From the NCBI RefSeq assembly GCF_044647545.1, contig NZ_CP172818.1: a stretch of DNA of 64,000 nt; one strand, 5' to 3'. Origin of the DNA: Escherichia coli (lineage in GTDB: Bacteria > Pseudomonadota > Gammaproteobacteria > Enterobacterales > Enterobacteriaceae). Made by a program: the position numbers. Shown here one piece after another: positions 60,001 to 63,000 of the stretch; position 1 is the stretch's first letter, and each line of letters begins with the position of its first letter.

Positions 60001-63000
60001 AATGGCTCCTCCTTGCTCATGGAATAAATGGTATCGGCATTACATAGTGGAAAATATGCTTTGTTCAGCATGCTGAACCGTAATGATGTGATTAAATGTG
60101 ATCTTGTACACACTTTGAATAATGAATCCAGAACAGCCACATTTAGTGAATGAGAATAAAAAGTAGATGGCGTGTTGTTGCAACATCGTAGTGTGTGGAT
60201 TGCGCCTAGAGCTTCTTTATTCGTTCGAGCGCATCGCCAATATTTTCTATTGGGTGCCATTGATTATTTTTGCTTGAAATCCCTCTCGAATGAACTTACT
60301 TATCACTTTATTGAATGAGGTAAAAACAACTGACATCCGGCTCGCTGATAACGCTGTGCAATAGTCTCAGGTAACCCGCTGTCACTGATGATCGTTTTAA
60401 TACATGATAGTGTTGCTACAGCATGCGGCTCAACGGCATCAAATTTTGAGTGATCGGCCATGAGAATAACTTCACGCGAGCGTTGAATAATCCGTGTTTT
60501 CACCCCGACCTCAAACATGGTGGCATTGGTGATCCCCGTCTCCAGCGACAGCGCATCGCAGGAGATAAACGCACGTTCTACGGAAAAGGCATTGATCATC
60601 TCCAGCGCCAGACTCTCTCCTACCGAAAAATAACCTGGGCGAATCAGTCCTCCGATAATGTAACTTTCCACATGGGGAAAACAGCCCAGTTCATTGGCGA
60701 TTTTAATGTCGTTGCAGATGACCTTTACCCGCGCATCGGCCAGGCATTTCGCCAGTTCGAGGCAGGTTGAGCCGGAGTCGAGAAAAAAGCAGTCGCCATC
60801 TTTGATCATTGTTCGGGCAAGGGCAGCTATTTCTCTTTTCGCCACAGATTGCAATGTACGTTTCACGTCGAAGACGTACTCTTTGTCGTCTGTACTGTCG
60901 TCGAAGTCCAGGCAACCGTGACCGCGGATCATGCCTGGATACTGGTTGACAATATACTGGAAATCACGACGGACAGTCGCTTCCGCATAGCCAAAAAGCT
61001 CCATGGCCTGCTGTGTGGAGAGGTGACGATGTTGCCACAGGTAGTGCAGCATCTGTTTGATACGGTCAGGTCTCTGTTGGCTCATCAGAAACAATCTCCT
61101 CTTACAGGGTGGCGAATTGAGCTAAGGTCGCGCGATAGTCAGATGAAGAGAACAGGGCGCGCCCAATCACCATATGTTGCGCCCCAGCTGCTGCCAGTTG
61201 CTGTGCAGCTGCCAGCGTAATTCCACCGTCGGCCCAGCACTCGGTCTGAGGAAAAGCCGTGCGTACTTTTTGGATTTTCTCGCACATGGAGGGAATAAAC
61301 CGCTGTCCCTGCCCATCGGGCTCACTGGTCATCACCATCACTCCGTCCAGCTCAGACGCCAGATATCGCCAGGCGTCGATCGGGGTTGCCGGATTAAATA
61401 CCAGTCCGGCTCGTGCGCCGGTATGGCGGATCTCAGTTAACGTTTCCGAAGGATAGTCCAGCGTTTCTGCATGAACGAAGATCCACGCGGGTCTGATTTC
61501 AGCCAGCGCGTTAAACCAGCGCTGTGGCCGGGCAAGCATGAAATGAAAGGACAAGGGATGAGGCGTCTGTCTGGCGACGGCCTGCACCGTTTTCATCCCA
61601 AACGTAATGTTGTTAATGAAGCTGCTGTCCTCAATATCCAGATGCAGGCTCCCAAAATCCAGATTGTCCAATGCCGTCAGCTCACGACCATAGTGCAGAG
61701 GATTTGCGCTGGCGAGAGAAGGGTGCAGGATCATAAGCGCCTCCGTTAACCTGATACCAGCGCAAACAGTGCATCGTCTGTGCTGGCATTTCCCACTGCC
61801 GTTAAGCGTTGTGGCGAATCAATAAACTGGCTGATGCGCTGAATGGTCAAAATATGTGCGTTGGCATCCGTGGCGCTGACGCAGAGAAGCAGCCAGACGG
61901 GGTCGCACTCCTCGTTACCAAAGGCGACCGGGGTGCGTAGCGTGGTGATACTGACCTGATTATAGTTTGCGCCTTGCTCTGGTCGGGCGTGAGGCAAGGC
62001 GATTCCTGGGGCTATCAGATAATAAGGCCCCCAGTTAAGGGTATTTTCGATGATCCCATTAACGTAGCATGGCTGCGCGGCACCATAGGCTACCAGCGGG
62101 CGGGTGGCGATTTCCACGGCCTGACGCCAGTCGGTGGCTTTACGTTGTGCCTGTACCCATTTAATATCGTTAATCATCCGTCGTTGACTCCATGCCGATT
62201 CGGGTTAATCTGGTAGCGATCCCCGTCGATACTTTTGACGAAGGCGGCAGGGATCGCAGAAGGGTTATTGCTCTTTGCCGGGGATAAGCGCTCTGCTTAT
62301 CCCCATCTTATCGGCGTATATGATGCACTTTCTCCATAAACTGACTGACTCGCGCCTGGTCAACGAAATTGGCAAAAACGCCGTCCTTTTTAAAGGTGGT
62401 TGCGGTCACACAGCCATCGGCGATACTGAGTTGTTCCTCCACGTTTTCCAGGCAGACGCCCGTGTTGGCCAACACGACGGTGTCAGGCACCGTTTCTTTG
62501 ACCCGTTTTAACAGCGCGCTGTCGGTACGCGTCCCGGCGGTCAGGCCAGAAACACAGAGCGCATCAGGATGGTTGTTAAATACTGTCGATTTAGCAATAG
62601 AACAGATATCGCGATTGCCCAGATACACGGCGGCCTCTGGGACGATATTGAACAAGGTTTTCACTTCGCCTGCACCAATCCGGTGTTGATGACGGATGGT
62701 CTCACCGACGTTAGTGTCCCAGACGCCAAAGTCGCTGGCATAGGCACCGGTAAATATCTCGCGGATAAACTTAGCGCCGGTAGCCATCGCCAGGTCGAAT
62801 GAGGCGACCGGATCCCACAGAACATTCACGCCAAACGGGATGCGGATATCGCTCATTAATTGCCCGATGATTCGTGCCATTGCCGCAGTGGTTTCCGGAC
62901 GCACCTTCGTGAGATAGGGAAGACTAAACTCGTTGGAGAACATGACTGCATCCACCCCACCATTTTGGAGCGCCATCAGATCGTCCCAGGCTTTGTCGAT

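What the first reader, a model, noticed from the sequence alone, without database searches (positions are those of the whole stretch)
62178..62307. Structured sgcA-sgcQ spacer, possible sRNA
A 130-bp spacer within an otherwise tightly packed operon contains a stable hairpin followed by a T-containing tract. I recall an sRNA (ryjB) annotated at this position in K-12 but cannot verify it from memory.
Basis: partly seen in the sequence, partly recalled or inferred. Interest (0 to 1): 0.15.

Follow-up and report, generated by a model that had tools for sequence, protein, structure and literature searches.

The report
Known antisense small RNA RyjB
The structured 130-bp gap between sgcQ and sgcA is the gene for RyjB, an already annotated E. 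coli small RNA read from the opposite strand to the sgc sugar operon, so the finding is correct but not new.

Summary
Window 62178-62307 is a 130-bp spacer in an operon whose other gaps are 11-16 bp. It folds far better than shuffled sequence.

The window is 100% identical to E. coli K-12 here. NC_000913.3 annotates ncRNA ryjB (b4624) at window 62174-62263 on the + strand, antisense to the sgc operon.

- **3' end.** It is RyjB's terminator. Published Term-seq puts a very strong 3' end at window 62309, and Hfq-CLASH fragments run from 62174 into hairpin 1 and out to about 62309-62313. The RNA is therefore probably 136 nt and complementary to the whole sgcQ-stop to sgcA-start junction, including the sgcA ribosome-binding site.
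- **Conservation.** In 18 distinct sequences from at least 9 genera of Enterobacterales, both hairpins are kept by compensatory changes. G-U pairs place the terminator on the RyjB strand. The apical loop CUUUUGRCGAAG and the block TTGACTCC never vary.
- **Function.** It is experimentally unsettled. The most likely role is cis-antisense control of the sgcQ-sgcA junction, with some trans pairing through ProQ and Hfq.

Already known; low interest.

The parts
62178..62307 (.). 130-bp sgcQ-sgcA intercistronic spacer (the finding)
   Evidence: ORF coordinates; K-12 annotation
62174..62263 (+). ryjB (b4624) as annotated in K-12 NC_000913.3: 90 nt, overlapping the first 4 nt of the sgcA CDS on the opposite strand
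   Evidence: 100% identity; offset window = K-12 coordinate - 4465803
62174..62309 (+). Probable full RyjB transcript, 136 nt: annotated 5' end to the Term-seq 3' end. It is complementary to everything from the sgcQ stop codon to the sgcA start codon
   Evidence: Term-seq 3' end at 4528112(+), read scores of about 3x10^5 in two data sets, classed 'primary' for ryjB. CLASH fragments TCATCCGTCG...GATAC (62174-62232) and 4528042-4528111/4528116. The 5' end is matched exactly by 5'-end sequencing
62139..62167 (+). P1, a sigma70-like promoter for the annotated 5' end: TTTACG-N17-TAATAT, with the -10 ending 7 nt before 62174. It lies inside sgcA codons on the opposite strand
   Evidence: Own scan, 8/12 match. 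This is below the tool's 9/12 threshold. It is conserved only in E. coli and close relatives
62184..62211 (+). Conserved TTGACT-N16-TAATCT arrangement (candidate second promoter P2, predicted start about 62216-62219). TTGACTCC is invariant
   Evidence: Same spacing and T-A-n-n-n-T in 16 of 18 sequences. Invariant columns. Function as a promoter is untested
62188..62191 (-). sgcA Shine-Dalgarno GGAG (complement of CTCC), 10 nt upstream of the sgcA AUG (62177-62175). It is fully covered by RyjB
   Evidence: Sequence; invariant in all homologues
62216..62257 (+). Hairpin 1: 8-bp outer stem, 4-5 bp inner stem and an invariant apical part CUUU-UGRC-GAAG (62232-62243)
   Evidence: dG -20.7, z -4.1. 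10 of 13 outer/inner pairs show changes on both sides. The apex is invariant. There is no strand preference: 10 G-U cells against 15 A-C cells
62258..62279 (+). Linker with a weak G-U-rich hairpin (GAAGGGU-UAUU-GCUCUUU). This region pairs with several CLASH partners (e.g. ydiV, thrS). It is deleted in several genera
   Evidence: Folds; CLASH chimeras; alignment
62280..62309 (+). Hairpin 2, the RyjB terminator: GGGGAUAAGC-GCUCU-GCUUAUCCCC plus the tail AUCUU. The mapped 3' end is at 62309, 2 nt into the sgcQ stop codon on the other strand
   Evidence: dG -18.4, z -6.0. 9 of 10 pairs show changes on both sides. 8 G-U cells against 1 A-C cell favour the + strand. Term-seq
61746..62177 (-). sgcA (PTS EIIA component), the gene whose translation-initiation region RyjB is antisense to
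62308..63114 (-). sgcQ (BtpA-family protein). Its stop codon overlaps the RyjB 3' end. Read-through antisense transcription enters it
   Evidence: The p19 dsRNA cluster reaches about 62541. A bicyclomycin-sensitive + strand 3' end lies at 4528875 = window 63072

Best explanation
The spacer is the gene for RyjB, a known E. coli small RNA transcribed from the + strand, antisense to the sgcXBCQAER operon.

Transcription starts at 62174, from a weak sigma70-type promoter that lies inside the first codons of sgcA on the other strand. The RNA runs through a 5' single-stranded region that is the exact complement of the sgcA ribosome-binding site. It then passes through a long covarying hairpin with an invariant apical loop and a short linker. 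It ends at 62309 at a GC-rich hairpin with a weak U-tract that overlaps the sgcQ stop codon. The annotated 90-nt gene therefore probably under-calls a 136-nt RNA.

Shown:
- Identity with ryjB, its strand, and both RNA ends.
- Hfq and ProQ association, and double-stranded RNA at the locus (all published data on identical sequence).
- Evolutionary conservation of both hairpins, and the strand of the terminator (computed here).

Inferred:
- RyjB pairs in cis with the polycistronic sgc mRNA across the sgcQ-sgcA junction. Contact would start through the mirrored hairpin-1 loops, since the RyjB loop carries a YUNR-type UUGR.
- Pairing would occlude the sgcA Shine-Dalgarno and AUG and create an RNase III substrate. 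This would uncouple or lower sgcA expression, and that of downstream sgcE and sgcR, relative to sgcXBCQ.
- A fraction of transcripts reads through the weak terminator and gives a longer antisense RNA over sgcQ that is ended by Rho.
- Limited trans pairing, through the 5' region and the linker, is possible but rests on low-read CLASH chimeras.
For: - Annotation and identity. The locus is present in 1656 of 5426 complete E. coli genomes, nearly invariant.
- 5' end: exact match in 5'-end sequencing (PMC2912661). A CLASH fragment starts at TCATCCG (62174) and runs contiguously to 62232.
- 3' end: Term-seq at 4528112 = 62309 with very high scores. CLASH fragments end at 4528111 and 4528116. RIL-seq has a separate 'ryjB.sgcQ.IGR' feature.
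- Structure: z-scores from -3.2 to -6.0.
- Covariation on 18 distinct sequences: 19 of 34 pairs have changes on both sides, against 5.6 +/- 1.8 in shuffles and 0-7 in slid controls.
- Terminator strand: 8 G-U cells against 1 A-C cell, and T-rich tails in relatives.
- Duplex in vivo: p19-captured RNase III dsRNA cluster S-375 at U00096.2 4526006-4526367, about window 62180-62541.
- Read-through: bicyclomycin-sensitive + strand 3' end antisense in sgcQ.
- Protein partners: ProQ ligand in E. coli and Salmonella; found in Hfq CLASH and RIL-seq.
- No conserved ORF on the RyjB strand.
Against: - No experiment retrieved shows any effect of RyjB on sgcA or on the sgc operon. The papers seen call its function unknown or 'largely uncharacterized'.
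- Hairpin 1 shows no strand preference, so it may act in the mRNA as well.
- Cis pairing does not explain why the apical loop sequence is invariant.
- The E. coli U-tract is poor and the terminator scan does not call it.
- P1 is only an 8/12 match and is not conserved in more distant genera or in some close relatives.
- The original 90-nt size, from a paper I could not read, is unexplained.
- In a bacterial three-hybrid assay RyjB did not bind Hfq detectably. ProQ loss did not change RyjB levels in Salmonella.
Confidence: 0.85

Rival explanations
1. The evolutionarily conserved product is a shorter RNA of about 91-94 nt that starts at the base of hairpin 1 (about 62216-62219). It would come from a second promoter inside the spacer, TTGACT (62184-62189)-N16-TAATCT (62206-62211). 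The 62174 start would then be an additional promoter specific to E. coli and Citrobacter. This would also explain the '90 nt' in the annotation.
For: TTGACT-N16-T-A-n-n-n-T occurs at identical spacing in 16 of 18 sequences, including Atlantibacter, Providencia, Budvicia and Leminorella (9/12 matches there), while the 16 nt in between vary. TTGA is invariant beyond what the GGAG Shine-Dalgarno needs. P1 is lost in L128/L126 and in distant genera. 62216..62309 is 94 nt and folds into a compact three-hairpin RNA, z -5.3.
Against: In K-12 the mapped 5' end is 62174. A single CLASH fragment spans 62174-62232, across the predicted P2 start. The dsRNA cluster starts at about 62180. The E. coli -10 is only 3/6. 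The conserved TA could instead be the 3' strand of a 5' helix in the long RNA, where 80% of cells pair but there is no covariation. I could not reach any TSS table.
Confidence: 0.3
2. The conserved hairpins act on the sense strand, as an intercistronic mRNA element of the sgc operon. They could be a stabiliser, a processing site or a protein-binding hairpin between sgcQ and sgcA. The antisense transcript would then be incidental.
For: Both hairpins also fold on the - strand (dG -19.2 and -18.5, z -3.8 and -4.3). Hairpin 1 has slightly more cells compatible only with the - strand (15 A-C) than only with the + strand (10 G-U). The invariant loop is unexplained by antisense pairing alone.
Against: Terminator hairpin: 8 G-U cells against 1 A-C favour the + strand, and the T-rich tail exists only in the + orientation. 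The + strand RNA is abundant, with defined ends. The invariant apical U-G pair is a C-A mismatch on the - strand. One metagenomic locus keeps the element although sgcA and sgcE are deleted.
Confidence: 0.12
3. The palindromes are REP-type repetitive extragenic elements. One recent survey lists ryjB as 'REP'-containing.
For: The RepRanger table tags ryjB with 'REP'. Hairpin 2 shares GGATAAG/CTTATCC with the REP consensus.
Against: Hairpin 2 is single-copy in the 64-kb window even with 3 mismatches allowed. The canonical REP consensus finds two other sites in the window but not this one. The element sits at an orthologous position in at least 9 genera and evolves by compensatory changes, unlike dispersed repeats. 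The median is 1 place per E. coli genome for the region.
Confidence: 0.03
4. The + strand transcript is a small mRNA for the 31-codon ORF at 62192-62287.
For: An ATG-initiated 31-aa ORF exists in E. coli.
Against: There is no Shine-Dalgarno upstream (GTTGACTCC-ATG). The ATG and the ORF are absent in 15 of 18 homologues, including close Citrobacter relatives.
Confidence: 0.02

Closest known systems
RyjB (ryjB, b4624) of E. coli K-12, also described in Salmonella as 'antisense-encoded RyjB'
   Same: Identical sequence, position and strand. This is that gene.
   Different: Nothing differs in sequence. However, the database coordinates (90 nt, ending at window 62263) disagree with published 3'-end mapping (62309) and with the conserved terminator found here. 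Rfam 15 has no RyjB family.
Classical cis-antisense RNAs with recognition stem-loops (CopA/CopT of R1, Sok/hok, RNA-OUT/RNA-IN; from my own knowledge of the field)
   Same: A short, highly structured RNA encoded opposite its target's translation-initiation region. It has a stem-loop whose loop carries a YUNR-like (UUGR) motif, an intrinsic terminator, and RNase III-type dsRNA at the locus.
   Different: The target is an internal junction of a chromosomal sugar-PTS operon, not a plasmid replication, toxin or transposase gene. No regulatory effect has been shown.
ProQ/FinO-class sRNAs (e.g. SibA-E, RaiZ, FinP)
   Same: RyjB is reported as an in vivo ProQ ligand in E. coli and Salmonella. It is cis-antisense and strongly structured, with a 3' terminator hairpin, like many ProQ ligands.
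   Different: RyjB levels do not depend on ProQ in Salmonella. It also appears in Hfq CLASH and RIL-seq data.
GadY and other antisense RNAs acting at intercistronic junctions of operons (from my own knowledge: GadY directs processing of gadXW mRNA)
   Same: An antisense RNA that overlaps the region between two cistrons. Duplex formation could direct cleavage and uncouple the two halves of the operon. GadY and RyjB are both among the top p19 dsRNA clusters.
   Different: For RyjB the cleavage and its consequence are inferred only.

Membership tests
RyjB sRNA gene (E. coli K-12 b4624) | Sequence identical or near-identical to K-12 ryjB | tested here: met
   181 of 181 identical columns over 62150-62330 against NC_000913.3; ncRNA ryjB annotated at 4527977..4528066
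RyjB sRNA gene (E. coli K-12 b4624) | Located between sgcA and sgcQ, on the strand opposite to them | tested here: met
RyjB sRNA gene (E. coli K-12 b4624) | A discrete transcript is made from this strand | tested here: met
   Not measurable on the window itself. Published K-12 data on identical sequence were retrieved here: 5'-end match, Term-seq 3' end, CLASH fragments
Intrinsic (Rho-independent) terminator | GC-rich stem-loop | tested here: met
   10-bp perfect stem, 5-nt loop, dG -18.4 kcal/mol, z -6.0
Intrinsic (Rho-independent) terminator | U-rich tract directly after the stem | tested here: inconclusive
   E. coli has AUCUUAU and is not called by the scan. Most other genera have UUUUUAU or UUUUUUA. 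Read-through is suggested
Intrinsic (Rho-independent) terminator | RNA 3' end mapped a few nt after the stem | tested here: met
   Term-seq 3' end 5 nt after the stem
Cis-encoded antisense RNA | Full complementarity to a transcript from the opposite strand | tested here: met
   RyjB covers the whole sgcQ-sgcA junction, including the SD, the AUG and the sgcQ stop. No - strand terminator was found in the spacer
Cis-encoded antisense RNA | Sense/antisense duplex forms in vivo | tested here: met
   Literature only: p19-captured dsRNA cluster S-375 over the locus, also seen in two other dsRNA/overlap data sets
Cis-encoded antisense RNA | Regulates the overlapping gene | not testable with these tools
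   No paper retrieved tests sgcA or sgc expression with and without RyjB
REP (repetitive extragenic palindromic) element | Matches the REP consensus and occurs in many dispersed copies | tested here: not met
   despite the 'REP' tag in PMC12306157
Any Rfam family | Covariance-model hit | tested here: not met
   No hit at gathering thresholds. At E<=10 the only match in 61900-62600 is a chance tmRNA fragment inside sgcA, outside the spacer
ProQ-associated sRNA | Bound by ProQ in vivo | not testable with these tools
   Reported in the literature; not verifiable from sequence

The most novel reading that the evidence does not exclude
RyjB is not a K-12 oddity. It is an ancestral, structurally constrained antisense module of the sgcQ-sgcA junction throughout Enterobacterales. 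Its conserved core is a roughly 92-nt RNA driven by the invariant TTGACT-N16-TAnnnT promoter inside the spacer. That promoter's -35 element shares bases with the sgcA Shine-Dalgarno on the other strand. The invariant CUUUUGRCGAAG loop would be a U-turn recognition loop, or a protein site, that sets the sgcA:sgcQ expression ratio. The current database entry would then be wrong at the 3' end and, for most species, at the 5' end.
Probability: 0.3. Interest if true: 0.35.

Novelty: already known. Interest (0 to 1): 0.14.

Why it matters
For the genome scan this closes the item. The structured spacer is the annotated sRNA gene ryjB, so it is not a discovery.

Three modest points go beyond the annotation:
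- The K-12 coordinates appear to miss 46 nt, including the terminator.
- RyjB has no Rfam family, yet it shows clear covariation across at least 9 genera, so a family could be built.
- RyjB's perfect complementarity to the sgcA ribosome-binding site, together with an invariant loop, gives a concrete and testable cis function for an sRNA that recent papers still call uncharacterised.

Tried and rejected
- **Rfam.** Searches at gathering thresholds and at E<=10 gave no family for this region.
- **Promoter and terminator scan.** The consensus scan found nothing in the spacer. Its thresholds (9/12 for promoters, at least 5 T in 8 for terminators) exclude both the weak promoters and the weak U-tract.
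- **Papers not held.** The original description (Kawano et al. 2005, tried as PMC549416) is not in the library. The 5'-end table of PMC2912661 is not held either.
- **Metagenome scan.** A scan with TTGACTCC-N28-52-CTTTTGRCGAAG returned 82 stretches. Only 8 are real sgc loci by tblastn; the rest are chance matches.
- **Plain MAFFT alignment.** With all genera it misaligned the hairpin-1 stems. I replaced it with a covariance-model alignment. That alignment is fitted to the structure, so the counts lean towards it; the slid and shuffled controls are reported.
- **Serratia.** Serratia sp. H1w (L009) has the same architecture by eye but scored above E=1 with the model, so it is not counted.
- **5' helix.** A helix in RyjB (UUGACUC with GGGUUAA) shows no covariation and is not claimed.
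- **Long-range pairing.** Pairing of 62192-62199 with 62310-62317 lies beyond the mapped 3' end. It could form only in read-through transcripts.
- **Rejected readings.** The small-ORF reading and the REP reading are rejected.
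Full report
**1. The observation**

The window carries the 3' part of the sgc operon on the - strand:

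| Gene | Window coordinates |
|---|---|
| sgcR | 60303-61085/61094 |
| sgcE | 61102-61734 |
| sgcA | 61746-62177 |
| sgcQ | 62308-63114 |
| sgcC | from 63127 |

The sgcQ-sgcA gap is exactly 130 bp (62178-62307). The other gaps are 7-16 bp, so "a spacer in an otherwise tightly packed operon" is correct.

The spacer is strongly structured:

| Region | Strand | dG (kcal/mol) | z-score | Shuffles folding as well |
|---|---|---|---|---|
| 62174-62320 | + | -59.2 | -3.7 | 0 of 200 |
| 62165-62320 | - | -51.0 | -2.9 | 2 of 200 |
| Hairpin 1 (62216-62257) | + | -20.7 | -4.1 | 0 of 200 |
| Hairpin 2 (62280-62304) | + | -18.4 | -6.0 | 0 of 200 |

Hairpin 2 is GGGGAUAAGC-GCUCU-GCUUAUCCCC. On the + strand it is followed by AUCUUAU. 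It is too weak for the consensus terminator scan.

**2. Identity**

A 301-bp query around the spacer is 100% identical to E. coli K-12 MG1655. It occurs once per genome in 1656 of 5426 complete E. coli genomes. PGAP-annotated records list only sgcQ and sgcA there.

The curated K-12 record NC_000913.3 annotates ncRNA ryjB (b4624, "small RNA RyjB") at 4527977..4528066 on the + strand. The window and K-12 are identical over 62150-62330, which places ryjB at window 62174-62263 (+). That is antisense to the operon and overlaps the first 4 nt of the sgcA CDS.

Rfam 15 has no model for it.

**3. The true extent of the RNA**

The hairpin with its T tract lies 3' of the annotated 90 nt. Several published data sets bear on the ends.

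- **3' end.** Published Term-seq data (Adams et al. 2021, PMC7815308, supplementary file 1) list a + strand 3' end at 4528112, classed as the primary 3' end of ryjB. The scores are about 3.0x10^5 and 2.8x10^5, among the largest values in the rows shown. This is window 62309, 5 nt after hairpin 2 (…CCCCAUCUU-3') and 2 nt into the sgcQ stop codon on the other strand.
- **CLASH fragments.** Hfq-CLASH chimeras (PMC7213987 supplements) contain RyjB fragments covering 4528042-4528111 and 4528042-4528116. One fragment starts exactly at the annotated 5' end, TCATCCGTCG…, and runs without a break to 62232.
- **RIL-seq.** It uses a separate "ryjB.sgcQ.IGR" feature.
- **5' end.** An independent 5'-end sequencing study reports an exact match to the known RyjB 5' end (PMC2912661).

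Taken together, the main RNA is most likely 62174-62309, or 136 nt. I could not read the original paper, which is not held. The reason for "90 nt" therefore remains open.

**4. Evidence of duplex and read-through**

- A p19/RNase III dsRNA capture study lists ryjB among the top sRNA-associated dsRNA clusters: S-375, U00096.2 4526006-4526367.
- The offset between U00096.2 and U00096.3 is 1977 bp, taken from the genome lengths (my own knowledge). With it, the cluster maps to about window 62180-62541. It starts just inside the RyjB 5' end and extends about 230 nt past the terminator into sgcQ.
- The Term-seq paper's bicyclomycin data set lists a Rho-dependent + strand 3' end antisense in sgcQ at 4528875, which is window 63072.
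- The weak E. coli U-tract is consistent with partial read-through.

**5. Comparative analysis**

*Loci collected.*
- Twelve enterobacterial genomes keep a 106-131-bp spacer between sgcQ and sgcA. They are Citrobacter (4 genomes), Salmonella diarizonae, Atlantibacter, Cedecea, Serratia, Lelliottia, Budvicia aquatica, Leminorella and Providencia.
- The four most distant loci have their real sgcA ATG 3 nt upstream of the tblastn start. The lengths of 109-128 bp printed for them are therefore 3 bp too long.
- Budvicia diplopodorum has an expanded, degenerate spacer of about 280 bp.
- Firmicute sgcQ homologues have no sgcA neighbour within 2.5 kb.
- A metagenome pattern scan added 8 real loci.

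*Covariation.* A covariance model built from 10 sequences realigned 18 distinct sequences. On that alignment, 92% of cells pair. Nineteen of 34 pairs show changes on both sides, against 5.6 +/- 1.8 in shuffles (0 of 500 reach the observed value) and 0-7 in the slid controls.

| Helix | Pairs with changes on both sides |
|---|---|
| Hairpin 1, outer and inner stem | 10 of 13 |
| Terminator (hairpin 2) | 9 of 10 |
| Apical stem CUUU/GAAG (4 bp) | 0; never varies |
| Putative 5' helix | 0 |

The alignment is fitted to the model and so leans towards the structure. Even so, stems as different as GCGAUCCC, CCGAUCUCCG, GCGCUCCCGC, GCCCCGAAG and GGCCCGGC flank the same loop.

*Which strand.* In the terminator, 8 cells are G-U (valid only on the + strand) and 1 is A-C (valid only on the - strand). 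The 3 nt between the stem and the sgcQ stop complement are TTT in most genera, which gives UUUUUAU only in the RyjB orientation. The terminator therefore serves the + strand RNA. Hairpin 1 has 10 G-U and 15 A-C cells, so it shows no preference. That is what one expects if mirrored stem-loops form in both the antisense RNA and the mRNA.

*Invariant blocks.*
- **TTGACTCC (62184-62191).** It is the complement of the sgcA Shine-Dalgarno GGAG plus UCAA.
- **TA at 62206-62207.**
- **CTTT-TG-n-CGAAG (62232-62243).** This is the apex of hairpin 1.

The 31-codon + strand ORF of E. coli is absent in 15 of 18 sequences, so the RNA is non-coding.

**6. Promoters**

- **P1.** The K-12 5' end fits TTTACG-N17-TAATAT (62139-62167), an 8/12 match. 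It lies in sgcA codons, and it decays in more distant genera and in some close relatives.
- **P2 (candidate).** TTGACT-N16-T-A-n-n-n-T (62184-62211) is kept at identical spacing in 16 of 18 sequences, with 9/12 matches in four distant genera. It predicts a start at the foot of hairpin 1 (about 62216-62219) and a 91-94-nt RNA.
- **Weighing the two.** This might be the ancestral promoter, and it might explain the "90 nt". In K-12, however, the CLASH fragment spanning 62174-62232 and the dsRNA edge at about 62180 show that P1 transcripts exist. I rate P2 at about 0.3.

**7. Mechanism**

- **Shown.** An abundant + strand RNA has defined ends. It is fully complementary to the sgcQ stop, the spacer, and the sgcA SD and AUG. 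dsRNA occurs at the locus. ProQ binds it in vivo in E. coli and Salmonella. It appears in Hfq CLASH and RIL-seq data. Its level rises in stationary phase, under SPI-2 conditions and after osmotic stress.
- **Inferred.** RyjB pairs in cis with the sgc mRNA, probably starting at the hairpin-1 loops, since the RyjB loop has a YUNR-type UUGR. Pairing would mask the sgcA ribosome-binding site and create an RNase III substrate. This would lower or uncouple sgcA (and sgcE, sgcR) expression relative to sgcXBCQ.
- **Trans targets.** They include macA, ydiV, thrS, dtpB and ftsZ in CLASH, and rfaH by expression inference. All rest on 1-4 reads or on correlation and are weak.
- **Not found.** No retrieved study tests the cis effect.

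**8. Rivals**

- A purely sense-strand mRNA element is disfavoured by the strand test on the terminator and by the abundance of the antisense RNA. It cannot be excluded for hairpin 1.
- The REP label given by one survey is not supported. Hairpin 2 is single-copy in the window, the canonical REP consensus hits two other sites but not this one, and the element is orthologous and covarying.
- The small-protein reading is rejected.

**9. Verdict**

The feature is the already annotated sRNA gene ryjB, so novelty is "already known" and interest is low.

The useful residue is threefold:
- a probable correction of the gene's 3' end (62309, not 62263);
- the first covariation support I am aware of for its two hairpins across Enterobacterales;
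- two unexplained invariant blocks, the loop and TTGACT-N16-TAnnnT, which give a specific testable model for an sRNA whose function is still unknown.

Noticed in passing
window 63072 (+), K-12 4528875: The published bicyclomycin Term-seq table lists a Rho-dependent + strand 3' end antisense inside sgcQ, about 760 nt downstream of the RyjB terminator. This suggests read-through antisense transcription over sgcQ.
   Followed up: partly
window 62192-62199 and 62310-62317: An 8-nt complementarity (AUGCCGAU with AUCGGCGU) brackets the RyjB body in the minimum-free-energy fold. The 3' arm lies just beyond the mapped 3' end, so it could form only in read-through transcripts.
   Followed up: no
L092 1-2100 (metagenome contig Ga0308165_1034929): sgcQ is followed by a well-conserved RyjB-like spacer and then directly by an sgcR homologue. 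sgcA and sgcE are missing, yet both hairpins, the invariant loop and TTGACTCC are retained.
   Followed up: partly
L011 3307-3590 (Budvicia diplopodorum): The sgcQ-sgcA spacer is expanded to about 280 bp. It has TTGAATCC instead of TTGACTCC, and the loop motif is lost. It is the only enterobacterial locus examined where the element looks degenerate.
   Followed up: no
window 9593-9708 (+), 27377-27571 (+), 33512-33593 (+), 35388-35527 (-): Rfam gathering-level hits elsewhere in the window: Mg2+ riboswitch (125.8 bits), Ysr276 antisense RNA family (184.6 bits), a tRNA, and a group II intron D1-D4 domain (66.3 bits).
   Followed up: no
window 2590-2625 and 26509-26544 (+): Two canonical REP elements (GCCTGATGCGACGCTG[T/C]CGCGTCTTATCAGGCCTAC), found while testing whether the RyjB hairpin is a REP.
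   Followed up: no
L014-L081: sgcQ (BtpA-family) homologues at 68-76% identity are widespread in Bacillota, and a few occur in other phyla. None has an sgcA homologue within 2.5 kb, so the sgcQ-spacer-sgcA arrangement with RyjB appears restricted to Enterobacterales in this sample.
   Followed up: partly
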